Source of the DNA: a virus
Lineage: Duplodnaviria > Heunggongvirae > Uroviricota > Caudoviricetes > Crassvirales
Virus record (IMG/VR): IMGVR_UViG_3300046331_000154
Length of the DNA: 64,000 bases
Direction: 5' to 3' (one strand)
Shown: one piece after another, positions 457 to 55,077 of the stretch
Layout: every line of letters starts with the position of its first letter
Position numbering within the stretch: position 1 is the stretch's first letter
The notes under the pieces: generated by a model
The model's input: only the letters and a program-made list of their open reading frames with translations
What the model was told of the DNA's origin: nothing
Databases searched by the model: none
Position numbers and translations under genes: made by a program

Positions 457-459
457 AAT

Positions 460-501
460 AAAAAATCCCTATATACTTAATTGTATATAGGGATTTTTTT
501 T
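460..501. terminator. bidirectional rho-independent terminator between convergent genes
   Basis: A perfect 12-bp stem (atccctatatac / gtatatagggat) is preceded by an A-run and followed by T7. It sits between the + ORF ending at 456 and the - ORF ending at 510. Confidence 0.7.
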
Positions 502-509
502 GACTTTTA

Positions 510-3500
510 TTATCTATTACTCCAACCGTATTGCTCTTTAGGGGTTGTGTCTAAAAGATGACCATAACCTGGAATTAAATATTTAATCATTTTAGAAGAA
601 GCTTTTGTTATTTTTTCATTTCTATCTTCAGCTAAAGGATTAACATAATTACTTAATGCAGCAATAACATCGGTACTACTCTCTATAAATTTTAACGAAC
701 TAATAGGATTTTTAAGTACTCTCCAAGCTTCACGTGGATCTATAAATTGTTGAGCATCAGATTGATTTCTTCTTGTAATTGCGGCAATATACCAAAAAAC
801 ATCATTATCGTCATCATCTGAAGCTGCACCAGCGGCAAGTAATGCTAAATTTGCCATTACCATAATATATGCTAATTCTGTAAAAGTTCTAACAATATTA
901 CCTTTTTCCCACTCATCCATTTCATTAAAATCTTTAACAATTAATGAAAATTGTAATTTTGCAAGTTTAGGTGCCACACTACGTGTTAAAAATCTCAACC
1001 ATGTAACATAATTTCCTTCATCGGGTCTTAATAAATCTGATTCAAAATTTAAAATAACATCTTCTGGTTTTGAAAAAGCATTTGTACCAAGTCCTCTAAA
1101 TCTACGTAATCCTGGAGATATAATGTGTTTCTTGAAATGTGCCACAGCTTTACCTAAAGTATGACGTTGTAATTCAGATTGATATTCTGTACTATACTGA
1201 CCTTGTGATTTAATTAACGATGATTGAATATAAGATCTTAATGTTGAATTACCACCTTTATTATATTCTGTCATTCTGTCAATTGTAGTGTAAAATGGTG
1301 TTTTAATAGATGTTGTTAATTTACCATTTTCCAATACTGAAATATCTAATATACTTGCAGCGTTTTCTTTAGTTGTAACGTTACCGTTTTTATCTAAATA
1401 ATTACCTTTTTCATCTAATATTTTAGCACCATCTAATATTGTCATTGTGTGAATAGATTGAATCCAATGTTCACCACCTTCTTGCATAAAAAATAAAGGT
1501 TTTGTATTAGTTAATGCTAACGCTTTATTTTTTTCAAAATTATTTTGAATTAAATCAGATGTTACTAAACCTCCAAAAGACATTAATAATTGGTTAGGTA
1601 GTGATTTATAAATATTTCTACCTACATCATCAATAGTATTACCAAGATGTTTAAAGAAGAATATTTCCGCATTTTTAATATTTTTAACACTTAAATTTGG
1701 ATCACTTATTACTTCCAATATAGATTGAACTTTACCACCTATAGCATTTGCAGGTGCTCCAACAAAATTTATAGCTTGTGAAGTTCTTGAAACAACACCT
1801 CTAATAAAACTTTCAATTTTAGCACCATCCGCATTACCAATTTTACCTAAATATGTACTTGTTTTATCGTATAAACGATTGTTCATCATTGTTTCAAGCA
1901 TTTTTATTAAATGTGCATCTTGCTTATCCACAATAACAGGAGAAGTTGTACCATCATTGTTAAAATAAGAAACAACCCGACTACCTAAACCTTGTTTTTT
2001 AATAAAACCATTTTCTTGAATAATATCGATAAATATTTTTAAATCTGTATGTACCTTAGTTTTACTTTTAAATTTAATAGATTGTTGTATTTCCATTGCA
2101 TACATTGTGGCTAAATCTGTAGATTGTTTAGATTTTGGTATTTTACCTCTAAAATGTATAGGAATATAATCTACTTCTTTACCCGATAAATCACGACGAA
2201 CAATGTGAACATTTTTATCATCTACAAAATCTTGTTCTCCTTGTGTTGTATCATCTGTTCTTAATTTAAAAGTATCTTGCCATAATTCTTTAAAAATATC
2301 TTTATTTAAGTTTTTTAAGTGTGTTATAGTTTCTTTATGATGTGATGGTAATTGATAAAAGTCTACACCTAGTGTATTTTTTTTTAGACTTTTGACACTA
2401 ATACCATAATTATCGTTAGCTTCCTTAGCTTGAGATTGTAACACAGCTAAATAATCACGTTCTTTTTGTGTTAATTTAGAAAAATCTGTTTTCCACTGTT
2501 TAGCGGGTTTTGTGATATAATAAGGATTACCGTCTTCATCAAAGTTTTTTATACTGTCTGTATTAAGTTTAAACCAATTACGCATTTTAGATTTTTTTAA
2601 TTTTAATTTATCTTCGTCAGATAAATCTTTACCAAAATCTTCAGCATTCACAGTGTTCATTAATTCATTAAAACTATCTCTAAATCCAATTTGATATTCC
2701 CCTAATAAAAATCCTTCATCATTTTTAGACCATTCAAATAAATTTTTATAATTTTCATCAGAAGACTTAATTCTACTACCATCTAAAAATATATTTGTAG
2801 CTTCTTGAAGTTCTAATAATTTAGGTTGTATTAAATTAGTATATTCATGTTTTACTTTATCTAATATTCTAGAAAATACTCTAATAATAGGATGTGTAAA
2901 ATCTTTTTCACTATTTACTGTAGCACTTAAAGAAGTAATATCTGTTAATGGTGAATCAATTAAATCAAACCATGTTTCATCAGTTTCTTTTTGAATCAAC
3001 TCTCTATTTTCAGATAATTGTTTATTTACATATTCATCAAGTGTTGCTTTAGTTAAACCTTTAGCTTTACCTTCTTGACGAAATTTTTGTTCATATTTTA
3101 ATAATACATCTTTATATTGTTCTTGAAATATTGCAGATTTTCTATTTAATTTTTTAGCAACTTTTAATAATTTTTTATCAATTATTTTAGAATTAGATAT
3201 TAATGCCTCAATTTCTTGATTTAATTTAACATGTTCTTCAGCTGTAATGATATTATTTGTTTCTAGATCTTCAACGGCATTATCTATATGTATTTGTAAT
3301 GATTTAAATGTGTTGTTGTATACTTTTACATTTTCATATTGTTGAGATGTAATATCTACATTAGCTAATATTTTATTAGAAGAATTTAATTGTTCTTCCA
3401 TAAACTTATTAAATATTTTAATACTTTCTAAACGATATTCATCACTGTCTTTAACATATTTGTCTAATAACACATCAATTTCATTTTTAACTGTTTTTAA

Positions 3501-4748
3501 TTTTGTTAAAAACGGTGAATCTTGCATTTGACTTCTATTTGCAATAACTTCTAAATCACTAAATGTTTTTTCAATACTTATGGTAATAGATTGTAAACCT
3601 TTTTTAGCAACTAATTTCTTTTGACCATAAGTATATTTAGCTTCTAATGTATCTATTCCAGTATAATTTTCATCCGTAGTATCTATAAGTCTTAATAAAT
3701 TATTTATTAATTTATTATAGGAATTATCAAGTCCAAATAAATCTCTAAAAAATGCAGTTAACACGTCCCAAAATGATTTTTTAGCATTAATTAATTGTTC
3801 AACTTCAAATTCAAATTGCTTATTACTAAACATTCCTGCAGTAAATTCTTCTAATGAAGACATTTCGTGTGGATATTTATCTTCTAATAATGGTTTTAAG
3901 CCATCATAAACTTTTTTTAAATCATTACGTAGTTTTTGTTCAGTTGCATTCTTAGGAGTCCTTAAAACACGTAATGTTCTATCGTGATATACTTCATGTA
4001 AAAACTTTTCAACACCTTCTTTAACCGATGATACATCACCAAGATTATCTACAGACATTTCGATAGTATTATCTACAGTATTATATTGCATATAAGTATC
4101 TGTAGATTTCATATCTTTAGAATCAACTAATTTAATAGTTGCTTTTGTGGATATAATCATTCTGTGAATTTGTTCAAATTCTTTAGAATTTTTATCAAAT
4201 ATTCCAGTATTTAATATGTTTGATAAAGCTTCTTTAGCTGTTATGTTACGAGGTTCACCTGCAAATATTGTATTTTTAATTTCCTCAGAGTATTCATATC
4301 TAATTTCTTCAGGTGTTTCAATTTTAGTCTTACCAAATTTATCTGTAGTTGTACGAGATACTAAATCATTTAAATTTTTTTTAGACTCAAACAAATAACT
4401 AGGATTTTCGCCCATATCTGCTCTAGAAGTATCTTCAAGTTCTAGTTGTTTAGCTTCTTCAGTTGCTTTTTTAAGTTGGACTTTTTCAATAATTCTAATA
4501 TATTGTTCATATAAAGGTTCAGATATTTTTATTTGAATAGTTCCTGGTAAATCATTATCTGTAGATTTAATATGATTAATAACTCTTTCTTTAAATTTAT
4601 CATTTAAAATTTTAATATTTTCAAAGTCAGTTTTACCAAAGTCTTTTGTAACTTCAGCAAAACCTTCTTTATTTAATTTTGTAATGTTTTTAATATCTCT
4701 ATTTACTACATTATATATTACTTCTTCTACGTCTTTTTTACACGCCAT
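510..4748 (-). CDS. giant virion-associated protein (1412 aa), possibly an ejected cargo protein
   Basis: A long ORF directly downstream of the giant RNAP gene in the same operon. Its size and position match the large cargo proteins that accompany the virion RNAP in crAss-like phages. No catalytic motif was recognised. Confidence 0.45.
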   Translation of the reverse strand: MACKKDVEEVIYNVVNRDIKNITKLNKEGFAEVTKDFGKTDFENIKILNDKFKERVINHIKSTDNDLPGTIQIKISEPLYEQYIRIIEKVQLKKATEEAKQLELEDTSRADMGENPSYLFESKKNLNDLVSRTTTDKFGKTKIETPEEIRYEYSEEIKNTIFAGEPRNITAKEALSNILNTGIFDKNSKEFEQIHRMIISTKATIKLVDSKDMKSTDTYMQYNTVDNTIEMSVDNLGDVSSVKEGVEKFLHEVYHDRTLRVLRTPKNATEQKLRNDLKKVYDGLKPLLEDKYPHEMSSLEEFTAGMFSNKQFEFEVEQLINAKKSFWDVLTAFFRDLFGLDNSYNKLINNLLRLIDTTDENYTGIDTLEAKYTYGQKKLVAKKGLQSITISIEKTFSDLEVIANRSQMQDSPFLTKLKTVKNEIDVLLDKYVKDSDEYRLESIKIFNKFMEEQLNSSNKILANVDITSQQYENVKVYNNTFKSLQIHIDNAVEDLETNNIITAEEHVKLNQEIEALISNSKIIDKKLLKVAKKLNRKSAIFQEQYKDVLLKYEQKFRQEGKAKGLTKATLDEYVNKQLSENRELIQKETDETWFDLIDSPLTDITSLSATVNSEKDFTHPIIRVFSRILDKVKHEYTNLIQPKLLELQEATNIFLDGSRIKSSDENYKNLFEWSKNDEGFLLGEYQIGFRDSFNELMNTVNAEDFGKDLSDEDKLKLKKSKMRNWFKLNTDSIKNFDEDGNPYYITKPAKQWKTDFSKLTQKERDYLAVLQSQAKEANDNYGISVKSLKKNTLGVDFYQLPSHHKETITHLKNLNKDIFKELWQDTFKLRTDDTTQGEQDFVDDKNVHIVRRDLSGKEVDYIPIHFRGKIPKSKQSTDLATMYAMEIQQSIKFKSKTKVHTDLKIFIDIIQENGFIKKQGLGSRVVSYFNNDGTTSPVIVDKQDAHLIKMLETMMNNRLYDKTSTYLGKIGNADGAKIESFIRGVVSRTSQAINFVGAPANAIGGKVQSILEVISDPNLSVKNIKNAEIFFFKHLGNTIDDVGRNIYKSLPNQLLMSFGGLVTSDLIQNNFEKNKALALTNTKPLFFMQEGGEHWIQSIHTMTILDGAKILDEKGNYLDKNGNVTTKENAASILDISVLENGKLTTSIKTPFYTTIDRMTEYNKGGNSTLRSYIQSSLIKSQGQYSTEYQSELQRHTLGKAVAHFKKHIISPGLRRFRGLGTNAFSKPEDVILNFESDLLRPDEGNYVTWLRFLTRSVAPKLAKLQFSLIVKDFNEMDEWEKGNIVRTFTELAYIMVMANLALLAAGAASDDDDNDVFWYIAAITRRNQSDAQQFIDPREAWRVLKNPISSLKFIESSTDVIAALSNYVNPLAEDRNEKITKASSKMIKYLIPGYGHLLDTTPKEQYGWSNR

Positions 4749-4760
4749 ATTTTAAATTAT

Positions 4761-7700
4761 TTAACAATTACTAGTTGTAGGTATATCTTCTAATGTACCT
4801 GGTAAATCTTTAAATAAAGATAATTGTTCAGATTTAGCTGTTGTAGAATTTTTTATTGTAGATTGAATACTTTTAGAAATAAGTCCTGTTTTATTAAAAT
4901 TTAATTCTGTAATTAATCCATATCTATTTAGTAATTCATTTTGCAACCATTCTGCAAATCTTGTTGGTATTTTAGCTAAATTTGAAGCAAATCCTTGAGG
5001 AAATATTTTATTTTCATACTTATCTATTTTAACAAATTGTTCTAAATTTACTTTTTTAAACAATTCAAAATCAGCCGCTGTATCTTGAAAATCTTGATTC
5101 CAATCTTTAGCAACTCCTGCATTTTCAGCAGCTTTAGTTAAAGCTTTTATAAAATTATTTTCTCCAACAGATTCCCAAAACTTATCACTTATTATATTGT
5201 GTGTAGATTCTTTAATATACGCTAAACCACCTCTTTCATTTATTCCTTGGACTAAATTAGGGTGTTGTTTAAGCTTTTCTGTAAGAATATCTGTCATTAT
5301 AAACAATGTATCTCCTATTTTACCTCTTCTAACTTTACCGCCTTTTAAATCATAACCTGCTTGATTAAACTCTTCAGATTTCCAAGTTTGATAAGCATGT
5401 TCAGAATTTACATATTCTTTACCTTTATAATTTAAACCTACTGTATTTCCAACATTAGTTAATTTTTTAGCAAATTCAGAACCTTTAGAAGTAATATTTT
5501 CTCCTTTCCTATCTTCTGAATATACATAATATTTTTTAGTTACTATACCTATTGCATTTGGATTATTCCTAATGATAGCACTTCCTCCACCAATTCTTGT
5601 TGAACCAATAGAATTTATATTTTCTGTAAATATATAAGCAGTATCAAGATTTTCTTTTGGCAAATCTTTAGTCCAGTTATTTTTAACTATTGTAGATTTA
5701 TTTTCAGATTTAACTTCAGTTTCAATTTCCACAACATTATCTCTTTCAAATAATAATTGTTCAATAACAAATTCATTTTCAGTTTTACCAAACTCACTAT
5801 GTGATACTGCGGTTTGAAAAGCATCTGTGTTTTTAATTGTATTTATTGACTCTACAACTTCATTTGTCATAACATTATTACCATTGAATTTAGAAGATTG
5901 TTTATTGTCACGCATTGAATATTCGTGAAATTGTCCTTGTTTAGATTTATAACCAAGTTTATGTGTTATAAAATATACAGGTTCTGAAACAGTTTCTTTA
6001 TCTTTAACAACTTCTATATAGCTATCTAATTTATATAATAAATTGTTATAAGTTACAAATTTAGGAAAGGTTTTAACTTTTTCATTTTGATTAGAATGTC
6101 TATTAGAATCATATTTCAATCTAAATCCTGCATTATTAGCATATATTCTAGGTGTATTACTACTTGTTTGCACAATATCTTCATTTTTAATAACAGGTAC
6201 TATTGTGCTATTATTCCAATTATGACGATATATTTGATCTTGTAATACTTCGGGATCTATTTTATTTTCAACAATTCTGTTATAAACATTATCAATATAA
6301 TTATTCATTCTGTTTTTTACAAATACTTCATGAGGAATAAATTGATACATTTGATTAGCATTGTATTTAAAACCAGATTGATGATAAGAATATTTAACTA
6401 AATTATCGGATAAATCAGGATTATCTTTTTCTAAATCTCTCCAAGCATCTGCTGCTTTTTCTTTAAATCCGTTAGTACTACCCTTACGACTATCTATACC
6501 TAAAAATGCAAACTCACCATCTTCTTTTATTTCAATATTTTCTAATAAAAAATTAGGTGTTTTAGTATTTCTAAATGATTCACGTGCAAGAACCATTTGT
6601 TCTACAAGATGCATTTTGTCTTTAGGTGCTTTTTTAAATAATACATCAAATTCATTATTTTTATTATCTAATGCAAATACTTTAGATTGTGATGTAATCA
6701 TTGTATAAAATGATTGTTCAAATATTTTTCCTAAATTATCATCATCTAAATATTTTTTATTTTTATGAATTTCTGCAGACATTTCGTTCATTATGTTTGA
6801 AAAATAATTACCTGCGGTTAAAAATATTCTAGGATTAGATTGTACAAGATTTGTAAAAAATGTTTCTGAATTTTTTTGATGTACACCTAATGATGTATAA
6901 CCATTATCAATTTGTTCTTTGTTATATAACATACTAATAAAACCTTGTATAACACCTTTATTTAATACATCACTTGTTTTATTACGTTGACTTAAAAACT
7001 CTGTCAATCTTTTACCAACACCTCGCTCACCATATTTAGAAGCACTTACCATTTTAGTAAATTCTTTTACTGTAGGTTTTAAATTTTCATATTCTTTTAA
7101 AGTTAAATATTGATCTAAATAATACTGTGGTGTTTTTTCACCTGTATTAATATTAACATGTGTAGCTAATTCATTTGCGCTTCTTGTAGTTATTTTATTA
7201 TTTGATAAAACACCATCAATTAGTTTTGATTGTTTTTTTTCTTCAATTACTTTTAATAAATTATCAAAATTATCTTTATTAAAATTTAAGGATTTTTGTA
7301 ATTTATCTAAATATTCTTTCTTTAAATCATCTACAACATTAGCACTATCTTTAATTTTAGATGTGATACCTTCTTTTTCAGATATTTTAGACACCATTTC
7401 AACTAATGCTGGTTGTGCTAAGAAAGCTAAAACTTTATCTGGATGTACACCTGCTCTAATTAAAAACAGTCCTGTATTTGTAGTTTGTGTGTTCCAATTA
7501 GCTTTTGTAATATAATCATCTTTTGCAATATCTACAAATGCGTTAAGAACAGCTGTTAAACTAGCACTAATTGAATATTTATTACTTTCATCATAATAAC
7601 CTTTATCAGATTTCATTTCAAAAACAGTTTGTTTATTTTCACTAGTGTTTTTAAAATTACCCCAACCAATGTAATTATCTAATGACATTTGTACATTTTG

Positions 7701-10700
7701 ATTCATTACACTATTAACTAAATTATTAGCTACTTGTCCAATACCAAAACCACCCGCAATAAAACCATATTTTAAATCAATTTGATATAATGGTGAAAAA
7801 GCTTGTAAATCATTTAAATTTTCACTTGTTGGAAATAGTTTTTTATTAATAAAATCTTTAATGTGCGGATGATCAATAGGTGTAATTAAATTAGTATAAT
7901 TATCAGGATGTGTTAATATACCATAATACATTTCAAACAATCTATTGTTTAAAGCACCTTCAGATTGTTCTGTTATTGATAAATCATTATTATAATTTTC
8001 ATATTCAACACCAACATTTGACTTTTTAAAACTTGGTAAAAATACAAACATTTTATCAACATCAAAATCTGAACCTGTTTTAGTAGTAATACCTGTATAT
8101 GCTACAACAGTATCAATATATGTATCAGGTAATATACCTACTATTTCTAAAGCATCATTAGATGACATTGCTTGATTAGGTATTCTATATCCAAGTAATT
8201 GTAATACTTCTTTAGGAAACATTCCACCTTGTCTATCAGCACCAAATAATTCGTCTAAAGAATAATCTCTCCAATTAGGAATATAATTACTTAATAAATT
8301 ACCCGATATAAATACTTGTCCAGGTAATACCGTAGGTTTATCATCAATTAATATTTTTCTAGGTTCTGCAAGTTGTTGTTTATCTTTAATCCACAATACA
8401 CCTGTTTCATCTGCTAAATTTTGGTCTAATCCATAATTAGACATTTGTATTAATGAAGTACCGTTAGTTTTTAATTTAATAGCCGCTTTATTAATAATAC
8501 TCATAATTGTAGACAACACTTTATCTCTAGCTTGTGGTATTACATAAGGTGTTAATTCTTTTTCAACAGCTTGTATTACATTTTCATCAATTTTTTCTTT
8601 ACGTAATTGATCTGCAATATCTTTAGCAAATTCACCCCAATTATTAATTACATAATCATCACCAATTTCAAACTTTTTTCTAAAGTCTTCAATAGCTCTA
8701 TTAGATTTTTCACCTATAATGGAATGTATGTTATTATAAACTTCAGCACCAGAATATGTGTTGTTATTAAATATATAATTTGTATCAAATTTAAAATTAT
8801 CAAATATATTTTTTTGTAACTGAGAACCTAATAATGTATCTTTAATACCTTTATTTGGTAAATCCTGTTGTAATTTCCAAAATCTATTATCAATAGTAAT
8901 TGCTTTTAATTCAAACGGTTTATTATTTAAAATAGCTTCTGATACATTTTCATTAGCAAATTGAGCACCTACTTTAACTCCTGATTGCATAATTGCTTCA
9001 TCAATAGGATTATTAGGATCTCTCATTTTATCTAATAATTTCTCTAATGGAGAACCTTTAACAAAAGATTTTAATAATACAGATTGAGAATATTTTAAAT
9101 ATAAAGGATTATTTTCATCATTATTGAAATAAACACCTTTTAATGGTTTTGTAGATAAGTGTTTTAATTCATCTTTAGTAAATTCTACAGTTTTACCAGA
9201 TTCCATCAATTGAATTTTATCCCAAATATCTTTTGAAATATTATCCCATTGACCCAATCTTTCTAATAAGAATTTCCATCTTTCTGGTGTAATATATGCT
9301 TGAGCATCAGCTTGATTTATTTTATTATTACCGTAGTGTTTTGTTGCAAAATCTTTTTCATCAGTAGACAATCCCATTTCATCAATGTAAGGAGAAGATG
9401 TTTCAATGTCTTGTAATACAGCAATTTTAGAAAGATGATCATTATGTTCAAGTCCTAATAATAATCCCTTACCATCAATATATGCTTTTGCAGCACGTTT
9501 GAAATAATCTACAATATTTTTATGATTATTGATAGAACCATTATATATTTTAGAATATTCTATTTGAGCAATAACGGAATTAATTGCATAATCTGATACA
9601 ATTTGTGTCATTGTACCAATAGGACCTAAATCTTTATCAAAATATAAATCATATAATTCTTTATCAAATTTACCTCTAGCACCATTTTTTTCAAATATAC
9701 CCGCCTCAATTAATTTTTTACCGTGTTCTTTAATTACTTCACTTAATGTATTTGTTAAATAAGAATTTAAAAAAGCAATTTGTTTAGGTGTTAATGTATC
9801 GTTATTAATATTTTTAATAACATCTATATCTATTGGTGAAAAATCTTCATTATAAAATAATCCAAAAGCTTCTTTATATTTACCTTGAGATAAACTTTTA
9901 GGTGATAATGATTGAATCATGTAATTTTTAAAAGCACCACCTACATATATTTTTCTATATGAATTGTCAAGATTGTTGTCAATATATCTTTGTATATCTT
10001 GAATATTAGTTCTATCTACTTTGTCTGTAAAATTTTTATCAAATATAGATTTACCACCATGTGTTAAAATATCAAATACATTACCGTTTGCATCAGTATG
10101 TAAATATTGTACAAGATTTGAAGTGTCTACTTTACCTGTTACAGCATCTGTATTATTGTCAATATGTTTTTTAGCCTCAATTGCTACAGATAATTCATCG
10201 TTAATATAACCTCTAAATATATTTAAAGTTTCATCATTAACTATAACTTTATCATCTTCACGACGAACATTAGTATTTAAAAAGAAATCTGTTTGTGTTT
10301 TTAAAGCTGTTCCTTTATCTGATGGTACGGCTGTTGGATATAATGACTTACCATTAACTTTTTTACCTAACAATGATTCAAATACATCTCTTACAATAGC
10401 ATCTCCTTTAGATGTATTTGTATTATCAACAGACCCGTCAGCTTTATCTTTTTCCATCATACTATTAGTACGATGTAATTTAACTAATTTACCTTTTTGT
10501 AATTGTTTAAGATATACAGAATGTCTACTATAAGCTAATTTTAATCTTTTTTCAACTTCTTGTGTGGAATTATTTAAAATATTAATTGTATCTGATAATT
10601 GTGACATTAGAGAATATGCCCAAATAGATTTGTTACCAGACATCACCATATTTTCAGACATCTCTGTATCAAATTTAGCAATAGCCTCTGCTATTTGAAC

Positions 10701-12335
10701 AATAACTTTTTGACCCATAGAAGTATTACCTTCTCCCTTTAAAGGATTTTGATAAACATCTTCTTTAAATAACACACTTAATGCGTGTTTGTTTTGATTT
10801 TCAATTGAAGCCGTAGCATCTTTAACTAATCCCTTATCAAATCTATCAAAAGCTGTATTAAATTCCCCTAATCTAGCAATAATTGTTTCAGGTGTTACCT
10901 CATAAGAATTACCATTATTAGTTAAATAGTAATTAAATGAATTTTCATCTAAATTAAATCCTAAATCTGTAATAATATTGTAAAATAAATCTTGTCCCTC
11001 TTTACTTAATTGTGTGCGTTGGTCTAATAATTGTTTTGTAGGTGTTTTACCATCTGTTGTAGCTCTAGCTATTGCTAAATCAACATTGTTTAATTTAGTG
11101 TAAACACCATTTTCTGTACGAAATAAATCAAAATATTTCTGTCTTAATTTAGAATAAGCTACTAAATTAAATGAATATGTGTTTGTTTTTTCATCAAATA
11201 TAGTAAATTTAGTTTTAAATTCTACACCTGCTTGTTCTAACACTTTAGTTTTTTTAGTAGAAGATTCTGCAGAATTAGTTGATTTATAACTATTATTTGA
11301 TAAATTAACCTCCATTGTATCTTGAGTCATTTTACCTAAATTTCCAAAAGCTTGAAAAAATTGTGCTTGTAAATTTGGACTAGAAGAATTTAATGAATTT
11401 AATAAATGTATTATATAAGGTTTTGTAGAAGACATTTTATTTAATTTGTCTTTCATAACATCTAACACATTTACGGCTTGTCCATCAGAAGTTAACAACT
11501 TAGGAATACCTGCTAATTCAGACTGTACTTCATTCCATATTGTATCAAATGGAACCATACTATCACCTACAAAAAATATAGAGGTATTTGTTTTATCTGG
11601 TAATAATGACAACATTAATTTAATGTTACCAGTAGCATTATCTTTACTATTTCTTTCTACACTACCTTTACCTACAATAGCACCACTTTCTTCTTGTTGT
11701 TCTTGTGTAACACTATCGTCATCATCTTCATTTTCAGTGTATGATAAATTTACAGAATTTAAAAAGTCTTTTACTTCTAATACAAAGTCATCTGTAAATT
11801 CTTTAAACAATTCATAAACATCTGTATTATCTGGTCGTTCAATAATTTGATTATCAAAAAACGCAACTACTTCATCTTTAATATTAAATTTTAAATTATT
11901 AAAATCTGTAATATCATCTTCAGTATTTTTGTATTTGTCAAAAATATATTTAGTAATCATTACTTTAGCATCGTTTTTAATACTTGTAATTTGATTTTTA
12001 AACATATCAAAAGCATTTAATCCCTCAAAACGAGTATTGTTGATAAACATTTTGTTGTTGTCTTTATCAATAACATACATTTTGTTACTACTATCTGTAA
12101 ATAGTTTAGGACCTCCATTAAAATCAAAACGATTATCTTCAGGATATTGTGTTTGTGTCCAATCACCAAATGCTTCTTTAAAACTATCGGAAAAGAAATA
12201 ACTAACTTGTGAATCTAAAAAATTAGACATATTTTCATCTAATTCTTCATATTCATCAAGTTTATAATATTTCATTAACTGTTTAGATAATTCTAATTCG
12301 TTATTTGTATGTGGATTTATAAATTTACAACTCAT
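4761..12335 (-). CDS. virion-packaged giant DNA-dependent RNA polymerase (crAss-like, gp66-type), 2524 aa
   Basis: The very large ORF contains ...YTGITTKTGSDFDVDKMFVFLP... (residues 1423-1427, nt 8055-8069). This is a DxDxD aspartate triad of the kind used as the metal-binding site in two-barrel RNAPs and in the phi14:2 gp66-type phage RNAPs. It sits between two other giant genes, as expected for the RNAP/cargo block. Confidence 0.6.
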   Translation of the reverse strand: MSCKFINPHTNNELELSKQLMKYYKLDEYEELDENMSNFLDSQVSYFFSDSFKEAFGDWTQTQYPEDNRFDFNGGPKLFTDSSNKMYVIDKDNNKMFINNTRFEGLNAFDMFKNQITSIKNDAKVMITKYIFDKYKNTEDDITDFNNLKFNIKDEVVAFFDNQIIERPDNTDVYELFKEFTDDFVLEVKDFLNSVNLSYTENEDDDDSVTQEQQEESGAIVGKGSVERNSKDNATGNIKLMLSLLPDKTNTSIFFVGDSMVPFDTIWNEVQSELAGIPKLLTSDGQAVNVLDVMKDKLNKMSSTKPYIIHLLNSLNSSSPNLQAQFFQAFGNLGKMTQDTMEVNLSNNSYKSTNSAESSTKKTKVLEQAGVEFKTKFTIFDEKTNTYSFNLVAYSKLRQKYFDLFRTENGVYTKLNNVDLAIARATTDGKTPTKQLLDQRTQLSKEGQDLFYNIITDLGFNLDENSFNYYLTNNGNSYEVTPETIIARLGEFNTAFDRFDKGLVKDATASIENQNKHALSVLFKEDVYQNPLKGEGNTSMGQKVIVQIAEAIAKFDTEMSENMVMSGNKSIWAYSLMSQLSDTINILNNSTQEVEKRLKLAYSRHSVYLKQLQKGKLVKLHRTNSMMEKDKADGSVDNTNTSKGDAIVRDVFESLLGKKVNGKSLYPTAVPSDKGTALKTQTDFFLNTNVRREDDKVIVNDETLNIFRGYINDELSVAIEAKKHIDNNTDAVTGKVDTSNLVQYLHTDANGNVFDILTHGGKSIFDKNFTDKVDRTNIQDIQRYIDNNLDNSYRKIYVGGAFKNYMIQSLSPKSLSQGKYKEAFGLFYNEDFSPIDIDVIKNINNDTLTPKQIAFLNSYLTNTLSEVIKEHGKKLIEAGIFEKNGARGKFDKELYDLYFDKDLGPIGTMTQIVSDYAINSVIAQIEYSKIYNGSINNHKNIVDYFKRAAKAYIDGKGLLLGLEHNDHLSKIAVLQDIETSSPYIDEMGLSTDEKDFATKHYGNNKINQADAQAYITPERWKFLLERLGQWDNISKDIWDKIQLMESGKTVEFTKDELKHLSTKPLKGVYFNNDENNPLYLKYSQSVLLKSFVKGSPLEKLLDKMRDPNNPIDEAIMQSGVKVGAQFANENVSEAILNNKPFELKAITIDNRFWKLQQDLPNKGIKDTLLGSQLQKNIFDNFKFDTNYIFNNNTYSGAEVYNNIHSIIGEKSNRAIEDFRKKFEIGDDYVINNWGEFAKDIADQLRKEKIDENVIQAVEKELTPYVIPQARDKVLSTIMSIINKAAIKLKTNGTSLIQMSNYGLDQNLADETGVLWIKDKQQLAEPRKILIDDKPTVLPGQVFISGNLLSNYIPNWRDYSLDELFGADRQGGMFPKEVLQLLGYRIPNQAMSSNDALEIVGILPDTYIDTVVAYTGITTKTGSDFDVDKMFVFLPSFKKSNVGVEYENYNNDLSITEQSEGALNNRLFEMYYGILTHPDNYTNLITPIDHPHIKDFINKKLFPTSENLNDLQAFSPLYQIDLKYGFIAGGFGIGQVANNLVNSVMNQNVQMSLDNYIGWGNFKNTSENKQTVFEMKSDKGYYDESNKYSISASLTAVLNAFVDIAKDDYITKANWNTQTTNTGLFLIRAGVHPDKVLAFLAQPALVEMVSKISEKEGITSKIKDSANVVDDLKKEYLDKLQKSLNFNKDNFDNLLKVIEEKKQSKLIDGVLSNNKITTRSANELATHVNINTGEKTPQYYLDQYLTLKEYENLKPTVKEFTKMVSASKYGERGVGKRLTEFLSQRNKTSDVLNKGVIQGFISMLYNKEQIDNGYTSLGVHQKNSETFFTNLVQSNPRIFLTAGNYFSNIMNEMSAEIHKNKKYLDDDNLGKIFEQSFYTMITSQSKVFALDNKNNEFDVLFKKAPKDKMHLVEQMVLARESFRNTKTPNFLLENIEIKEDGEFAFLGIDSRKGSTNGFKEKAADAWRDLEKDNPDLSDNLVKYSYHQSGFKYNANQMYQFIPHEVFVKNRMNNYIDNVYNRIVENKIDPEVLQDQIYRHNWNNSTIVPVIKNEDIVQTSSNTPRIYANNAGFRLKYDSNRHSNQNEKVKTFPKFVTYNNLLYKLDSYIEVVKDKETVSEPVYFITHKLGYKSKQGQFHEYSMRDNKQSSKFNGNNVMTNEVVESINTIKNTDAFQTAVSHSEFGKTENEFVIEQLLFERDNVVEIETEVKSENKSTIVKNNWTKDLPKENLDTAYIFTENINSIGSTRIGGGSAIIRNNPNAIGIVTKKYYVYSEDRKGENITSKGSEFAKKLTNVGNTVGLNYKGKEYVNSEHAYQTWKSEEFNQAGYDLKGGKVRRGKIGDTLFIMTDILTEKLKQHPNLVQGINERGGLAYIKESTHNIISDKFWESVGENNFIKALTKAAENAGVAKDWNQDFQDTAADFELFKKVNLEQFVKIDKYENKIFPQGFASNLAKIPTRFAEWLQNELLNRYGLITELNFNKTGLISKSIQSTIKNSTTAKSEQLSLFKDLPGTLEDIPTTSNC

Positions 12336-12338
12336 AAT

Positions 12339-15300
12339 TTAACATTTAGTTGGTGGTTTATTATCTAAACCTTTTTTCTTTTTAAGACTTTTTAATTGAT
12401 TTAATCCTTCTTCAGTTATAGCTTCTGTTTTATAACTCTCATCCAAAGATACATTAACATTATCAGAAATCAAAATGTTTTGTGTATTATTTTCTAATGT
12501 TGTTTGGTTAGACTGTAATGCTTTTAGTTCTGCAGTAACATCTATATTTCCAACAACATCTTTAATTGTTTTTGATTTATTATCAATTAATGCATTAATA
12601 TTAGGTAATGAATAAAACTTAGAATCACCCTCAGAAGTAATTATATTTAATAAAGATTTGTTATTTTTTAAATTTTTAATTTCTCTTTCTATATTTCCTT
12701 TACTATTTACTGTTTGAGTAATTTGTAAATTACCAATTTTTACATTTTTAATAATAATCTTTTTAACATTTTCATTAACTGGAGATACTTTTACCCTCTC
12801 ACCTTCGGACGGTTTTTGTACTTTTTTAATAACAGTAACATTACTATCAACATAAACATTAATATCACCACTAAAAGGTTGTAGTGTGTCTATATTTATA
12901 CTTGTTACTTCTTCTAATAAGTACTTTTTATATTCTTGACTGTTAATAAAATCACTTGTAAGATATTCTATTTTAGTATTTTGACGTTTTTTAGTAGTTA
13001 AAAAATCTAAAAAATCTTGTTCAGACATTTTACCACCTTCAAATGATAACACACCTTCTTGACCAATTATAATTTCACCATTTTGATATTTAGTTGTGTA
13101 AGGTTTAGTTTCACCTTCTAATGTAATATTATCGTGTATAAACAATGTCATAAAATTACCTATAGAAGTTTGGTCACCATTTTTAAATAATTGAAATTCT
13201 CTTTGAAAATTTTTCTCAATTAAATCTTTTAATGTAGAATCTATTTTATATAAATCACTTAATTTAGCATTATTTTGTCCAAGTCTAATTCCTCCTTCAG
13301 GATTTTGATTATAATCATAAAGTGCTTTATACACTTTGTAAATCATTTGTGCTTGTTCTGTAGTAATTTTTCTAACATTTAATTTAACAGGTGTTGCTAT
13401 ACCACCAGGTGAGTGTATAATTGTATATACATAACCTTTTTGTTTAGATGGGTTTTTTAATGGAAATGGAAATTCTACTTTTTTATCAACAGTTGTATTT
13501 TTTTCATTGATAATATTACCATCAATATCTTGTACCCAAAATAGTTTTACATCTTTTGATTTACCATCAAATTCTTTAATATTTATTATTTTATTTTCAA
13601 CAGTTGCATCTAAATAAGTTAATTTACCACCTTTTTGATATTGTATTTTAGATGTTACATTTTCATAACCATGTTTAATAATAGCATCTACTATTAGTTT
13701 TCTAGCTTGATAGGTTGTTATATCGGGCGACGCTTGGTCTGTTAAAGACGCAATAAATGTAAATGTATTTTTATCAACATTTACTTGTAATGGTAAATGT
13801 CTATACATAAAATCTAATTGCTCATTAGTATAATTTACATATTTAGCATCTAAATATCTTAATGCTATTTTATTTGAATTATTTAAATAAGCAGGTTTAG
13901 TAAATGTTACAACTGTATCTTTTACACTTTTAAAATTATTAATAAAATTTCTAAAAGGTTCTAAAATATATTGTGAAAATTTACCAGAAGTATTACCACT
14001 TCTATCAATACCCATAGTTGCAACACCAGGAAATTGTAATTTATCACCTTTTTCTAAATTTTGCAATTCAATAGGAACTTCTATAATTTCATCTTCAACA
14101 ATCCCTTCAACAACTAAATCTGTTAAATCTTCTTGTTTAGATTCATTTGTATCTATTACTTTTTCTTTATCGAGATTATTTAATGCATCTAATTCATCTT
14201 TATGTACATATTCACCTGTTTCAGTATCTTGATACCAATCTTCCATACCTTCTAAATCAACAGCTTGATATTTACTTCTTATTTCTTCTTTAACTTCTTC
14301 ATTGTTTTTAGTTAAAGTTTCTTTATCTGCTATAACAATTTCTTTCTTTTTATCATCAGCTAATTGATTTATTACCTCTGCTGTTTGAGGATCTACGGTT
14401 GTATTATTAATACTTTCGTCAATTTCATCAATAGTTTGTGCTGCAGCAATAGCTTCTGTGATAGCATCAGCGTTAGCTACATTTTCTGCAGAATTATTAT
14501 CACGTGTTATTTTATTATCATTAACAATTTTATCAAACGCTTCTTGTTGTTTTTTAGGATTCCACAAATCTAAATTAGTTTGTTTAACATCTTCCAATAA
14601 AGAATTGTGATAATTTTCTAATTCTTGTTCTTTAGCAAATCGCATATCTCTTGTTGCTAATTGTGAACGTAATCTTTCATTTTCTAAATTAGTTCTATCT
14701 AAACCGTGTTGAGATAATAAATCATTTATTTTTTTATTGTGAACATCTAAAGCTTTTGAAGCTTCAAATTGTTTCATAGTATTCATTTTATTAGTGTTTA
14801 CAAGAGTATTATAAAATTTTTGTAAATCTTCTGGTGTAGCGTCTTTATTTTTAAGATCTAATACAGGTTGTGCATAACTAATAAATTGTTCATGAGCTTT
14901 TTGTGTAACATTAGCTTTTTCCATAATAGATTTTTTACGATCTTCTGGAAGTTTGCTGTCTTTTAAGTATTCTGATAATATATTTAGACCGTCTTGACTA
15001 TCAGCAATAAAAGAGTTTACAAGTCTTGCCTCAGCAAGTTGTTGTAAATATTCTATTGTTTCAACATCATTTTCAGCAACAGCTTTATCCCAAATTTTAC
15101 TATCATCTTCAGTGATTTTAATATTTGTTAATAGTGTATCTCTTTTTACAGGATCTATTACTTTTTTACCATTTACTAATTCATATTCATTTTCACCAGT
15201 TTCAGGATTTATTTCTTCTGTTCTTTTATAAATATCAGAATTAATTTGAGCAAAATATGCTTCTGCTTCTACACCTTTATCTAACAGTCTATTAATTCTA

Positions 15301-16723: not shown

Positions 16724-18484
16724 TTATCTGTTATTACTTATAATTAATGCTTCTTGGAATTTATTTTCATCCATGTTATTAATACTTACAGTTTTTTTAT
16801 TACTAACATCGTAATAATTAATATCATATGTTTTTTTAGTAGAATTATATTTTACTTCAAAATCTTTTATATTTTTTCCTTGATTTCCTGAAATTAAATC
16901 ATCTCTAAATTGAGCATATATTCCAGGTCTGTTTTTTACAGTATTTGCAATATTATAAAAATCAACACCTCCTTTATACTCTGATTTATCAAAATCATTA
17001 ATACTTCTAGATACATATACAGGTACATGTACAACTTTATCTCCATCTTTTTTTGTAATATAACCTGTATGTGCAAGTTTGTTAGATCTTGAATCGTAAG
17101 CGCTAAATGCAGTAATTGTAGATTCTGCCGTTAAATCACCTGTGTAAGTAAAAGATTCCATATCTTCAGCTTCAATTTTTTCTCCATTTTCAGTTACTGC
17201 TAAAAGTTCATTTCTTTTTAATTTATCTGTTAAATTTTCAGAAGCTTTTGTCTTATCCTTAGGTATTGATTTATTAGCAAATAAATTTCCTGAAACACTC
17301 ACATTGGGATCTATTCTTGCATTTTGAATTCCAACACCTGTATTATTTGTTAAGTATTCTACAACGGCTTTTCTTTCTTCTATACTTCCAGGTTTAAAAT
17401 TCTTACCATTTTTTCTATTTAATCCGTAAGCAATAGCTTTATAATCAGGATCTTGTATTATATCACTATTTTTAGTCCACACATTTGTTGAATTACCATT
17501 ACGTCCAGTATTTAAATCTAAATATTTTGGTGAACCAGATGAAGAATTTCCTAATGTTAATTTTTCTAATAAATTTTTATTTTTATTTTGAACAGTAATT
17601 TCAGGTAGTGGTACATTTTCACCATCTAAAGTGTTATTTGTTTTATTACCAATAAAAGTAGCACTTGTATTAGAATCTTTAGTAACACCAGATTCACGTT
17701 GTGAATACATTGTGTTAGTAAAATAATTTTTAAATTCTTCAGCGTTTTTACCTGCTTCAATATTAAATAAAGTACCTTCTCCTGTAGGTTGTATCCATTT
17801 TGAATTTAGTGCTTTTTCTGCATTTTTAAGTTGTTCAAAATTATTATTTGTAACTGTTTTACCAGAACTGTTTACCATTACTAATCCTTCAGGTCTTTCT
17901 ATAATTTGATAACCAGATCCAGCAATACTGCTTGTTGTTTTACCCATTAAATCATGAAACTCTTTAACATCTTTCATAAAATCTTGATTTGCTACAATAC
18001 CTTTAGGGTCAATATTTACTATTTCATTTTTATCATTAACACCTGTATAATTTTTTCTATGCTGATTCCATAAATTTAATGCTTGTGTACTACCATATTG
18101 TTTAGACGCGGCTTCTAAAAATCTTGTTTTTTCTGCAGCTTCTGCAACATATGCATTATTAATTTTAGAAACTTCTCCCATAGGATCATTTAACTTTTTA
18201 TATTCTCTTTGTAAATCTAAAAATTTACTTTTAGAACCTTGTATATCTCCTGTTTTAGTTTGATAATTTGCAAGCGCATCAACTTTAGACATGTATTCAT
18301 CATTAAGTTTTTTAGCTCTTTCTGTATGAACATCTAAGGGATTAACCTTAAACATTTCTGCTTGTTTAACACGTGCTTCTTCTAAAGCATCATAAACTTT
18401 TTGCTTGTAAAGTGGTGCCGCAATTATTTCTTGCATAGATAACGGATCATACTGTGCAACGTTGTATTGACTATATCTATTCAT
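16724..18484 (-). CDS. virion structural protein (586 aa), hypothetical
   Basis: An ORF in the structural operon with tight spacing. Confidence 0.4.
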   Translation of the reverse strand: MNRYSQYNVAQYDPLSMQEIIAAPLYKQKVYDALEEARVKQAEMFKVNPLDVHTERAKKLNDEYMSKVDALANYQTKTGDIQGSKSKFLDLQREYKKLNDPMGEVSKINNAYVAEAAEKTRFLEAASKQYGSTQALNLWNQHRKNYTGVNDKNEIVNIDPKGIVANQDFMKDVKEFHDLMGKTTSSIAGSGYQIIERPEGLVMVNSSGKTVTNNNFEQLKNAEKALNSKWIQPTGEGTLFNIEAGKNAEEFKNYFTNTMYSQRESGVTKDSNTSATFIGNKTNNTLDGENVPLPEITVQNKNKNLLEKLTLGNSSSGSPKYLDLNTGRNGNSTNVWTKNSDIIQDPDYKAIAYGLNRKNGKNFKPGSIEERKAVVEYLTNNTGVGIQNARIDPNVSVSGNLFANKSIPKDKTKASENLTDKLKRNELLAVTENGEKIEAEDMESFTYTGDLTAESTITAFSAYDSRSNKLAHTGYITKKDGDKVVHVPVYVSRSINDFDKSEYKGGVDFYNIANTVKNRPGIYAQFRDDLISGNQGKNIKDFEVKYNSTKKTYDINYYDVSNKKTVSINNMDENKFQEALIISNNR

Positions 18485-18485
18485 A

Positions 18486-54453: not shown

Positions 54454-54489
54454 AGTTTTTTATTAAGTAGTAAAGATAAGATATATATT

Positions 54490-55057: not shown

Positions 55058-55077
55058 AAGTATTTACCGCACATTAT

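What the first reader, a model, noticed from the sequence alone, without database searches (positions are those of the whole stretch)
4761..12335. Giant virion RNA polymerase candidate with a DFDVD triad, flanked by two more giant genes (1460 aa and 1412 aa)
The 2524-aa ORF carries the DxDxD motif (nt 8055-8069) in a Gly/Thr-rich context in its central third. This is the arrangement in the two-barrel virion RNAPs of crAss-like phages, but the protein is about 350 aa longer than the phi14:2 enzyme. The three consecutive giant genes total about 16 kb, a quarter of the window. They presumably form the ejected cargo that initiates early transcription. The extra length and the two partner proteins have no assigned domains.
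Basis: partly seen in the sequence, partly recalled or inferred. Interest (0 to 1): 0.6.

Follow-up and report, generated by a model that had tools for sequence, protein, structure and literature searches.

The report
Virion RNA polymerase with NADAR module
The giant gene is a clear relative of the RNA polymerase that crAss-like phages inject with their DNA; its extra C-terminal length is an add-on predicted to strip ADP-ribose from nucleic acids, and the injected giant proteins carry cysteines almost only at their ends, as if linked head-to-tail.

Summary
ORF 4761-12335 (minus strand, 2524 aa) has one DFDVD, at nt 8055-8069.

The protein matches the solved phi14:2 gp66 virion RNA polymerase (PDB 6VR4, E=2.6e-178). 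DFDVD aligns with the catalytic DFDID. The flanking giants are gp67-like (1460 aa) and gp65-like (1412 aa, HExxH), in phi14:2 gene order.

New points:
2. An exhaustive search shows the same modules in dozens of giant crAss-like polymerase proteins, or as separate genes between the polymerase and gp65-like genes. The fusion is therefore widespread. I found no paper describing it.
3. The three giants hold 4 cysteines in 5396 aa (48 expected). All sit at position 3 or at the last residue, pairing across each protein junction. The rule holds in phi14:2, crAss001 and cr1_1, in about 25 metagenomic loci, and in 56 of 67 giant representatives. Fully fused polyproteins have none.

Enzyme activity, packaging and disulfide linkage are inferred, not shown.

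The parts
4761..12335 (-). Virion RNA polymerase gene, 2524 aa: orthologue of phi14:2 gp66 and crAss001 gp50 plus a C-terminal accessory module
   Evidence: ORF. PDB 6VR4 E=2.6e-178. tblastn best hit phi14:2 g066, 29.6% identity over 75% of the query. 32.6% identity over 1988 aligned columns.
12327..12329 (-). Cys3, one of only two cysteines in the polymerase
   Evidence: Cys positions are 3 and 2524. Equivalent N-terminal Cys in phi14:2 gp66 (MACK), crAss001 gp50 (Cys5) and many loci.
11634..11750 (-). Equivalent of the gp66 cleft-blocking domain (aa 196-234), followed by the conserved NSKDNATGNIKLMLSLLP
   Evidence: MAFFT mapping onto gp66 residues 196-233, 17 of 38 identical. Role of this domain taken from the phi14:2 paper.
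8451..8885 (-). Equivalent of the connector between the two barrel domains (aa 1151-1295)
   Evidence: Maps onto gp66 1095-1238, 51 of 144 identical.
8055..8069 (-). Catalytic motif DFDVD (aa 1423-1427)
   Evidence: Each Asp of the gp66 DFDID motif is needed for RNA synthesis, and Ile or Val at position 4 is typical of crAss-like vRNAPs.
7704..7796 (-). Equivalent of the bridge helix (aa 1514-1544)
   Evidence: Maps onto gp66 1529-1559, 13 of 31 identical.
7458..7574 (-). Equivalent of the trigger loop (aa 1588-1626)
   Evidence: Maps onto gp66 1598-1636, 19 of 39 identical.
5508..5699 (-). DUF7831 domain, N-terminal half (aa ~2213-2276; FTEN, GGGSAIIR and NAIGIVTKK motifs)
   Evidence: Pfam PF25176 E=8.3e-9, 35.8 bits against a cut-off of 27. 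Uninterrupted homologues match aa 2205-2282 and 2408-2490 contiguously.
5115..5507 (-). NADAR-fold domain nested in a loop of DUF7831 (aa ~2277-2407). Candidate catalytic residues: E2312 (5400-5402), K2319 (5379-5381), H2379 (5199-5201), D2384 (5184-5186), W2387 (5175-5177)
4836..5114 (-). DUF7831 domain, C-terminal half (aa ~2408-2500; IFPQGFASNLAKIP, FAEWLQNEL)
   Evidence: This half has pLDDT 81-93 in the window model. The stand-alone DUF7831 model has pLDDT 96.5.
4764..4835 (-). Low-confidence C-terminal tail ending in Cys2524, the last residue
   Evidence: pLDDT below 50. Cys position.
12339..16721 (-). gp67-like giant virion protein, 1460 aa. Its only Cys is the last residue
   Evidence: BLASTP to phi14:2 g067 E=2.3e-58 (aa 33-741) and E=1.7e-12 (aa 965-1311); crAss001 gp47 E=5e-8. 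Cys position.
510..4748 (-). gp65-like RNAP-associated protein, 1412 aa, with HEVYH (aa 251-255, nt 3984-3998). Its only Cys is Cys3
   Evidence: BLASTP to phi14:2 g065 E=1e-90, with LHEVYHD aligned to LHEIMHD. crAss001 gp49 E=2e-29 and HExxH position. Zincin-like assignment from the phi14:2 paper. Cys position.
16724..20363 (-). Two upstream cysteine-free genes: 625 aa (cargo-protein-1-like, g069-like) and 586 aa (g068-like)
   Evidence: BLASTP to g069 E=2e-44 and to g068 E=6e-6. Weak Pfam crAss_CARG1 hit, below the cut-off. Zero Cys in both.

Best explanation
The 2524-aa ORF is the virion-packaged, two-barrel, single-subunit DNA-dependent RNA polymerase of a divergent crAss-like (Crassvirales) phage.

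**Gene block.** The order is cargo-1-like, g068-like, gp67-like, vRNAP, gp65-like (zincin HExxH), as in phi14:2. By analogy with phi14:2 and crAss001, these proteins are loaded into the capsid, ejected ahead of or with the DNA, and the polymerase transcribes early genes. This step is inferred.

**Extra residues.** The roughly 310 extra residues are an accessory module fused to the polymerase C-terminus. It is a DUF7831 domain whose surface loop carries a nested NADAR domain of the histidine ('phage') type.

**Most likely role.** NADAR enzymes remove ADP-ribose from guanine bases in DNA and RNA. Delivered with the polymerase, this one would be present from the first moment of infection. It could clear host ADP-ribosyltransferase lesions (DarT1-type) from the incoming template or from early transcripts. 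I put this at about 0.5.

**DUF7831.** It is probably a nucleotide- or ADP-ribose-handling partner domain. Its fold resembles macrodomains only weakly.

**Cysteines.** Each cargo giant carries cysteines essentially only at its ends. A C-terminal Cys on one protein is matched by a Cys at position 3-6 of the next. This fits a head-to-tail, reducible disulfide chain gp67-like ~ vRNAP ~ gp65-like, replacing the peptide bond of the polyprotein versions. I put this at about 0.45.
For: **Orthology (shown).**
- E=2.6e-178 to 6VR4, DFDVD aligned with DFDID, and the cleft-blocking, connector, bridge-helix and trigger-loop segments all align.
- Synteny and partner homology.
- crAss-type capsid, portal and terminase genes lie in the window.

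**Packaging and early transcription in relatives (literature).**

**Module anatomy (shown).**
- Pfam DUF7831.
- Split halves versus contiguous homologues.
- NADAR fold.
- NADAR HMM hits in close homologues.
- Invariant catalytic-type residues aligned with YbiA.
- The histidine variant is described for phage NADARs.

**NADAR activities and phage anti-DarTG1 role (literature).**

**Recurrent linkage to the cargo block (shown).**
- Stand-alone NADAR or DUF7831 genes sit between the vRNAP and gp65-like genes in L027, L034, L035 and L036.
- cr1_1 gp076 ends in DUF7831.
- 67 giant representatives carry these modules, and 52 of them have D[FY]DxDK.

**Cysteine rule (shown).**
- 4 Cys in 5396 aa against 48.5 expected, P=1.8e-16.
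- Same pattern in phi14:2, L027, 25 IMG/VR loci and cr1_1.
- It holds in crAss001, where gp47 is encoded on the other strand.
- A fully fused 5515-aa polyprotein has zero Cys.
- 56 of 67 giants have a Cys in their last 8 residues, against about 0.8% expected per protein by chance.
- Functional inter-subunit disulfides exist in crAss001 virions.
Against: - No activity, packaging or redox data exist for this phage.
- The window's own NADAR segment does not reach any Pfam threshold.
- Profiles of the module find no solved NADAR by sequence.
- hhalign to T4 gp30.3 is null.
- The AF2 model of the module is only moderate: mean pLDDT 69, with the N-terminal half of DUF7831 poor.
- T4 and YbiA NADARs did not protect against DarT1 in one in vivo assay, so activity does not guarantee counter-defence.
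- Whether the host lineage has DarT-like toxins is unknown.
- For the cysteines, no experiment shows a disulfide. The cytoplasm and the anaerobic gut are reducing. Several gut lineages keep additional internal Cys.
Confidence: 0.85

Rival explanations
1. The C-terminal module is not an ADP-ribose hydrolase for nucleic acids. It acts on small molecules. Possibilities are a YbiA-type N-glycosidase on reactive nucleotide intermediates, or cleavage or sequestration of NAD-derived immune signals. DUF7831 would act as the binding partner.
For: YbiA-family NADARs are N-glycosidases of riboflavin intermediates, and the targets of most stand-alone NADARs are unknown. DUF7831 also occurs alone in giant viruses and unrelated phages. 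A related contig carries NAD-salvage genes next to the cargo block.
Against: All NADARs tested so far hydrolyse guanine-ADP-ribose on DNA or RNA. The domain is covalently tied to an enzyme that works on DNA and RNA. No evidence here points to a small-molecule substrate.
Confidence: 0.15
2. The extension is a non-catalytic appendage. It might be a packaging, spacing or docking element, or a decayed domain picked up by recombination. It would add nothing enzymatic to the polymerase.
For: The window's NADAR segment misses the Pfam threshold. The modules appear at many different positions in giant cargo proteins: N-terminal, internal or C-terminal. That suggests position-independent passenger domains.
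Against: E, K, H, D and W at the NADAR active-site positions are invariant in 10 homologues of 56-77% identity. NADAR modules are 72-84% identical between phages whose polymerases barely align. That points to strong purifying selection on a mobile, functional module.
Confidence: 0.12
3. The terminal cysteines do not form inter-protein disulfides. They would serve another purpose, such as metal-bridged clasps, a signal for capsid loading or proteolytic trimming, or covalent attachment to another virion component. The general lack of cysteine would merely reflect selection on proteins that must unfold to pass through the tail.
For: Some termini have His next to Cys (MAHC, MTHC..THC..LHCNK), which would suit metal binding. 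The two smaller upstream cargo-like proteins are also Cys-free yet have no terminal Cys. A conserved N-terminal motif around the Cys (M-x-C-x-[IF]-x-Y-x-G-K-x-Y) could be a targeting signal.
Against: The pattern is complementary. The first protein of the chain lacks an N-terminal Cys and the last lacks a C-terminal Cys. Inserted 'bead' proteins have exactly two Cys, one at each end. Fused versions lose the Cys at the former junction. An anchoring or targeting signal would not be expected to vanish on fusion.
Confidence: 0.3
4. The ORF is not a polymerase. DFDVD is a chance DxDxD in a large structural protein.
For: About one DxDxD is expected by chance in a protein of this size and Asp content. 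PHROGs and Pfam give no polymerase family hit.
Against: End-to-end homology to a biochemically and structurally characterised RNA polymerase, with the motif in register.
Confidence: 0.01

Closest known systems
Cellulophaga phage phi14:2 gp66 virion RNA polymerase (PDB 6VR4), with gp65 and gp67
   Same: Homologous over aa 46-2204, with about 33% identity over aligned columns. DFDxD has a branched aliphatic residue at position 4. The cleft-blocking, connector, bridge-helix and trigger-loop segments align. Gene order is the same (g069, g068, g067, g066, g065). The terminal Cys pattern is the same: g067 ends ..TIC, g066 runs MACK...QECK, g065 starts MSCK.
   Different: gp66 stops where the window protein continues for about 310 aa (DUF7831 with nested NADAR). 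The C-terminal Cys has moved to the end of the added module. The gp67-like partner is 337 aa shorter.
Bacteroides phage crAss001 gp47, gp50 and gp49 (RNA-polymerase-associated cargo proteins)
   Same: The same three protein families, detected in virions by mass spectrometry. The same terminal cysteines: gp47 has a single Cys at -3, gp50 has Cys5 and Cys at -9, gp49 has a single Cys5.
   Different: gp47 is encoded on the opposite strand. I did not scan crAss001 gp50 for these modules. It was not among the five phage records that matched the window's C-terminal module by tblastn at E<=1e-3. The family-level relationship to the window is distant.
Phage NADAR proteins: AdfN, T4 gp30.3, AdfN-Bas32, AdfN-Bas60; and the DarG1 antitoxin
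   Same: NADAR fold. Glu and Lys seven residues apart. Histidine in place of the third catalytic acid, as described for phage NADARs. These proteins are known to remove ADP-ribose from guanine and to counter DarTG1.
   Different: Those are small, free, expressed proteins. Here the domain is nested inside DUF7831 and fused to a virion-packaged polymerase. No detectable sequence similarity to T4 gp30.3. Activity is untested.
cr1_1 / cr55_1 (Suoliviridae) gp076, and metagenomic giants such as P0153, P0151 and P0148
   Same: vRNAP-containing giants that end in DUF7831 (cr1_1 gp076, P0153) or carry NADAR nested in DUF7831 (P0151, P0148). They also have the terminal Cys.
   Different: All are below about 30% identity to the window polymerase. 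In cr1_1 and P0153 the DUF7831 is uninterrupted. In P0148 the nested module lies in the gp67-like part.
T4 Alt and internal proteins; N4 gp50 virion RNA polymerase
   Same: Works alike: enzymes packed in the capsid and injected with the DNA to act before phage gene expression. Alt is an ADP-ribosyltransferase (annotation). N4 gp50 is an ejected polymerase.
   Different: Unrelated protein families. Alt writes ADP-ribose on host proteins, whereas NADAR erases it from bases.

Membership tests
crAss-like virion RNA polymerase (phi14:2 gp66 family) | Sequence homology along the whole gp66 chain | tested here: met
   phmmer E=2.6e-178, query 46-2204 against chain 53-2183. 32.6% identity over 1988 columns.
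crAss-like virion RNA polymerase (phi14:2 gp66 family) | Catalytic DFDxD with Ile or Val at position 4, in register with gp66 1361-1365 | tested here: met
   DFDVD aa 1423-1427 aligns with DFDID. The rule is stated in the paper.
crAss-like virion RNA polymerase (phi14:2 gp66 family) | Two double-psi beta-barrels joined by a connector, plus a bridge helix and a trigger loop | tested here: inconclusive
   The connector, bridge-helix and trigger-loop segments align at 35-49% identity.
crAss-like virion RNA polymerase (phi14:2 gp66 family) | Genomic association with a gp65-like (zincin) gene and a gp67-like gene | tested here: met
   HEVYH aligns with the gp65 HEIMH.
crAss-like virion RNA polymerase (phi14:2 gp66 family) | Presence in virions, and Mg-dependent, rifampicin-resistant RNA synthesis | not testable with these tools
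   Known for gp66 only.
NADAR superfamily (PF08719) | YbiA-like alpha-helical core fold | tested here: met
NADAR superfamily (PF08719) | Match to the family HMM | tested here: inconclusive
   The window segment has no hit even at E<=10. 8 of 10 homologues at 56-77% identity hit PF08719, best E=1.5e-5.
NADAR superfamily (PF08719) | Conserved Glu and Lys seven residues apart (YbiA E48/K55; PnNADAR E43/K50; T4 E36/K43) | tested here: met
   E2312 and K2319 in NSEHAYQTWK are invariant in homologues and align with YbiA SEHYFQAQK. Roles.
NADAR superfamily (PF08719) | Third catalytic residue (Glu in YbiA, Asp in the BC4488 family, His in phage NADARs) followed by D-x-x-W | tested here: met
   Invariant H2379, D2384 and W2387 have the YbiA E125/D130/W133 spacing. 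MAFFT itself places a non-conserved Glu (E2376) under E125 with a 4-residue gap, so the His assignment rests on conservation.
NADAR superfamily (PF08719) | Hydrolysis of guanine-linked ADP-ribose | not testable with these tools
DUF7831 (PF25176) | Match to the family HMM above the gathering score | tested here: met
   35.8 bits on the isolated C-terminus and 29.1 bits on the full protein, against a cut-off of 27. The HMM matches only the N-terminal half because of the insertion. The C-terminal half matches homologues.
Macrodomain (considered as the fold of DUF7831) | Three-layer alpha/beta/alpha macro fold with significant structural similarity | tested here: inconclusive
Macrodomain (considered as the fold of DUF7831) | Sequence-profile similarity to macrodomains | tested here: not met
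   hhalign of 88 DUF7831 sequences against E. coli YmdB gives probability 0.2%. The profile finds nothing in PDB sequences. No member hits Pfam Macro.
gp65-type zincin-like cargo protein | Homology to gp65 and an HExxH motif in register | tested here: met
   E=1e-90 over 1247 aa, with LHEVYHD aligned to LHEIMHD. HEVYH at aa 251-255.

The most novel reading that the evidence does not exclude
Crassvirales inject their giant cargo proteins as one covalent string. Where the gp67-like, polymerase and gp65-like parts are separate polypeptides, a cysteine at the very C-terminus of one is disulfide-bonded to a cysteine at position 3-6 of the next. The bond would break in the reducing cytoplasm. All other cysteines have been purged.

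Accessory anti-defence 'beads' such as NADAR and DUF7831 modules are added in one of two ways. Some are extra links with one Cys at each end. Others, as in this window, are fused to the polymerase with the Cys moved to the new C-terminus.

This would be a previously unrecognised principle for ordered protein ejection and for delivering counter-defence enzymes before any phage gene is expressed.
Probability: 0.4. Interest if true: 0.85.

Novelty: new variant of a known kind. Interest (0 to 1): 0.62.

Why it matters
The polymerase itself is a new, very divergent member of a known family: at most about 33% identity to anything found.

Two things go beyond that.

- **A delivered eraser.** An ADP-ribose-erasing domain riding on the injected polymerase would be a counter-defence enzyme present at time zero. 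That is exactly when DNA- or RNA-ADP-ribosylating toxins act. The exhaustive search shows this is common in crAss-like phages, yet it is absent from the papers I could search. NADAR counter-defence has so far been described only for free, expressed proteins.

- **A testable ejection model.** How crassviruses organise and eject several megadaltons of cargo is an open question. The terminal-cysteine rule gives a simple hypothesis that can be tested directly by non-reducing gels or MS and by Cys-to-Ser mutants. It is also a practical marker for recognising cargo proteins and their order in metagenomic crAss-like genomes.

Tried and rejected
- PHROGs and Pfam scans of the three giants gave no informative family other than DUF7831.
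- An IMG/VR scan with the polymerase found only relatives at 24% identity or less, not the source genome. The 'phages' collection has nothing closer than phi14:2.
- Profile searches of PDB sequences with the NADAR-module alignment and the DUF7831 alignments found nothing meaningful.
- hhalign of the NADAR module against T4 gp30.3 and against the NADAR half of P0030 was null or weak. The NADAR call therefore rests on fold, homologue HMM hits and motifs.
- The AFDB Foldseek library was unavailable.
- I considered that the Cys pattern might be a DNA-level junction signal (TGT TAA ... ATG nnn TGT). This is rejected because crAss001 gp47 keeps its C-terminal Cys although it is encoded on the other strand, away from gp50.
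- I considered a polyprotein cleavage site. This is unlikely because fused versions have no Cys at the junction.
The motif occurs only there.
- Rfam and tRNA scans of the window were empty.
- The third homologous-protein search and the genome and metagenome contig scans were not used.
Full report
**1. Observation**

The window has a minus-strand run of genes. It includes ORFs 12339..16721 (1460 aa), 4761..12335 (2524 aa) and 510..4748 (1412 aa). The 2524-aa product has one DxDxD, DFDVD at aa 1423-1427 (nt 8055-8069), in the context AYTGITTKTGSDFDVDKMF. About one such motif is expected by chance, so the motif alone is not evidence.

**2. Identity of the giant ORF**

phmmer against all PDB sequences returns a single hit: 6VR4, the DNA-dependent RNA polymerase gp66 of Cellulophaga phage phi14:2. 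E=2.6e-178, in three stretches covering query 46-2204 and chain 53-2183. BLASTP gives 34% identity over 954 residues, and TKTGSDFDVDKMF aligns with TKTGSDFDIDKMY. A MAFFT pairwise alignment gives 32.6% identity over 1988 columns.

The alignment maps the gp66 elements named in the structure paper onto the window protein:

| gp66 element | Window aa |
|---|---|
| Cleft-blocking domain | 196-234 |
| Connector | 1151-1295 |
| Catalytic motif | 1423-1427 |
| Bridge helix | 1514-1544 |
| Trigger loop | 1588-1626 |

The paper shows three things. Each Asp of the motif is essential. gp66 is in virions and makes the early, rifampicin-resistant transcripts. All crAss-like vRNAPs have Ile or Val at motif position 4.

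tblastn against 50,697 phage records finds phi14:2 first (29.6% identity over 75% of the query), then 75 other crAss-like records. Major capsid, portal and terminase genes of crAss type lie further along the window. I did not model the barrels. Their presence is inferred from identity to a crystal structure.

**3. The neighbours**

- The 1412-aa protein matches phi14:2 gp65 (E=1e-90, 24% identity over 1247 aa) and crAss001 gp49. Its HEVYH (aa 251-255) aligns with the gp65 HEIMH. gp65 is the zincin-like protein of the phi14:2 paper.
- The 1460-aa protein matches gp67 (E=2e-58) and, weakly, crAss001 gp47.
- The next two genes upstream (586 and 625 aa) match g068 and g069. The latter has a sub-threshold hit to the Pfam crassvirus cargo-protein-1 domain.
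- Gene order equals that of phi14:2. In phi14:2 and crAss001 these proteins were detected in virions.

**4. Where the extra length is, and what it is**

gp66 ends opposite query aa ~2205-2212, so the surplus is one C-terminal block. Pfam places DUF7831 at aa 2217-2271, above its gathering score.

A search of 5.8 billion proteins with aa 2181-2524 found 35 small proteins. BLAST mapping showed two classes.
- One class matches aa ~2205-2282 and ~2408-2500 contiguously. These are uninterrupted DUF7831 domains, up to 84% identical.
- The other class matches only aa ~2277-2406, at 55-84% identity, in unrelated contexts.

So a ~130-aa module is inserted in a DUF7831 loop, between IVTKKYYVYSEDR and WNQDFQDT.

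The window segment itself misses Pfam NADAR, but 8 of 10 close homologues hit it, best E=1.5e-5. E2312, K2319, H2379, D2384 and W2387 are invariant in the homologues. They align with YbiA E48, K55 and D130, W133. His sits five residues before the Asp, where YbiA has E125. The literature assigns exactly this histidine variant to phage NADARs, and shows that the Glu and Lys are needed for activity.

NADARs remove ADP-ribose from guanine in DNA and RNA. Free phage NADARs (AdfN) defeat the DarTG1 defence.

**5. DUF7831**

Foldseek against viral models finds DUF7831 in giant viruses, in Caulobacter and Rhizobium phages, and inside giant proteins of gut crAss-like phages cr130_1, cr131_1 and cr272_1.

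**6. The module belongs to the cargo block, and the fusion is common**

- In cr1_1 and cr55_1 (Suoliviridae) the 4551-aa gp67-plus-vRNAP fusion ends in an uninterrupted DUF7831.
- In four metagenomic contigs, small genes carrying NADAR and/or DUF7831 lie directly between the vRNAP gene and the gp65-like gene: L027, L034, L035 and L036.
- In a TAG-recoded contig (L028), a NADAR module lies inside a read-through polyprotein of at least 5399 aa, about 740 aa before DFDVD.
- An exhaustive phmmer search of 1.84 billion cluster representatives gave 326 hits. Of the 114 new proteins among the 150 best hits listed, 67 are at least 1800 aa, and 52 of those carry D[FY]DxDK.
- P0153 (2499 aa) aligns with the window polymerase over aa 25-2280 at 29% identity and ends in DUF7831. 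P0151 and P0148 carry the nested DUF7831[NADAR].

The window's architecture is thus one instance of a widespread design. NADAR modules are 72-84% identical between phages whose polymerases barely align, so the module moves between genomes. I found no paper in the searchable library that links crAss-like phages to NADAR/YbiA or mentions DUF7831.

**7. Terminal cysteines (found in passing, possibly the most interesting point)**

The three giants contain 4 Cys in 5396 residues:
- the last residue of the 1460-aa protein;
- residue 3 and the last residue of the polymerase;
- residue 3 of the 1412-aa protein.

The other 36 ORFs of the window have 0.90% Cys, so 48.5 are expected (binomial P=1.8e-16).

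The same complementary pattern appears widely: Cys within the last few residues of the upstream protein and Cys at position 3-6 of the downstream one. It is seen in phi14:2, L027, cr1_1 and all of about 25 IMG/VR loci that have separate genes.

| Test | Result |
|---|---|
| First protein of the chain | No N-terminal Cys |
| Last protein of the chain | No C-terminal Cys |
| Inserted small cargo genes | Exactly two Cys, one per end |
| Fully fused 5515-aa polyprotein | No Cys at all |
| crAss001 gp47, encoded on the other strand | Single Cys at -3 of 2341 aa, so the feature is in the protein, not in a DNA junction |
| 67 independent giants | 56 have a Cys in the last 8 residues (about 0.8% expected per protein); 50 have three Cys or fewer |

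[quoted passage not shown] Neither those papers nor a 2026 paper that calls crassvirus ejection proteins unresolved mentions these cysteines.

The simplest reading is a reducible head-to-tail disulfide chain that replaces the peptide bonds of the polyprotein forms. This is inference only.

**8. Mechanism proposed**

- *Shown:* orthology, domain anatomy, conservation, genomic linkage, cysteine statistics.
- *Inferred from relatives:* packaging, ejection, early transcription.
- *Inferred from family knowledge:* the NADAR domain hydrolyses base-linked ADP-ribose. Being tethered to the injected polymerase, it can act on the incoming template or on nascent RNA before any phage gene is expressed (about 0.5).
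- *Speculative:* DUF7831 as an ADP-ribose-binding or -processing partner, and the disulfide chain (about 0.4-0.45).

**9. Verdict**

As a polymerase this is a new, divergent member of a known family. The C-terminal DUF7831[NADAR] module makes it a new variant that is widespread in sequence data but, as far as I could find, undescribed. The terminal-cysteine rule is a separate lead that can be tested directly.

Noticed in passing
window 510-16721 (Cys codons at 12327-12329, 4764-4766, 12342-12344 and 4740-4742); also L001, L002-L027, L031, L033-L036: The giant cargo proteins carry cysteines almost only at their termini. A C-terminal Cys on one protein pairs with a Cys at position 3-6 of the next. 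Fused polyproteins lack them. This holds across Crassvirales, including phi14:2, crAss001 and cr1_1, and in 56 of 67 metagenomic giants.
   Followed up: yes
window 12291-12335; L001 g066; L027; P0018, P0029, P0098: Many polymerase and 'bead' proteins share an N-terminal motif around the Cys, M-x-C-x-[IF]-x-Y-x-G-K-x-Y-[ST]-x-x-[ED]-[FL]. It might be a capsid-loading signal. The window polymerase has only a loose version (MSCKFINPHTNNELELSKQLMKYY).
   Followed up: partly
window 46483-49872 (-): The large terminase gene is 1129 aa. It holds an intein (Pfam Intein_splicing, aa 366-721) with a LAGLIDADG homing-endonuclease domain (aa 574-653). The terminase match is split into two stretches.
   Followed up: partly
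window 60177-60489 (+), upstream of ORF 60527-62248: A 48-nt direct repeat (60178-60225 and 60442-60489, 92% identical), and three copies of ACATAAAWASTTCCTA confined to this intergenic region. Function unknown. There is no precedent for a vRNAP promoter motif in phi14:2.
   Followed up: partly
L028 (JGI 3300033463 contig, 102 kb), locus 101-16298: A crAss-like contig with 96 in-frame TAG codons in the polymerase reading frame, implying TAG reassignment. Its read-through polyprotein of at least 5399 aa has a NADAR module inserted about 740 aa upstream of DFDVD, and its last residue is Cys.
   Followed up: partly
L034 15672-20921: In a related 97-kb contig, the genes just beyond the cargo block include NAPRTase/NAMPT-like, phosphoribosyltransferase, metallophosphatase and RNA ligase genes. 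This is an NAD-salvage-like set next to an ADP-ribose-related cargo module.
   Followed up: no
window 16724-20363 (-): The two genes upstream of the gp67-like gene (586 and 625 aa, g068- and g069-like) contain no cysteine at all. crAss001 gp46 likewise has none.
   Followed up: partly
P0251 (2769 aa), P0029, P0018, P0149, P0158: Other accessory domains ride on or next to crAss-like polymerases together with DUF7831. Examples are a faint ART-PolyVal hit, an RNase H domain, and long unassigned inserts. This suggests a varied repertoire of injected effector domains.
   Followed up: no
window ~54000-56000: GC and AT skew change sign, and gene orientation switches from minus to plus. This is probably the boundary between the structural/cargo module and a divergently transcribed module.
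   Followed up: no
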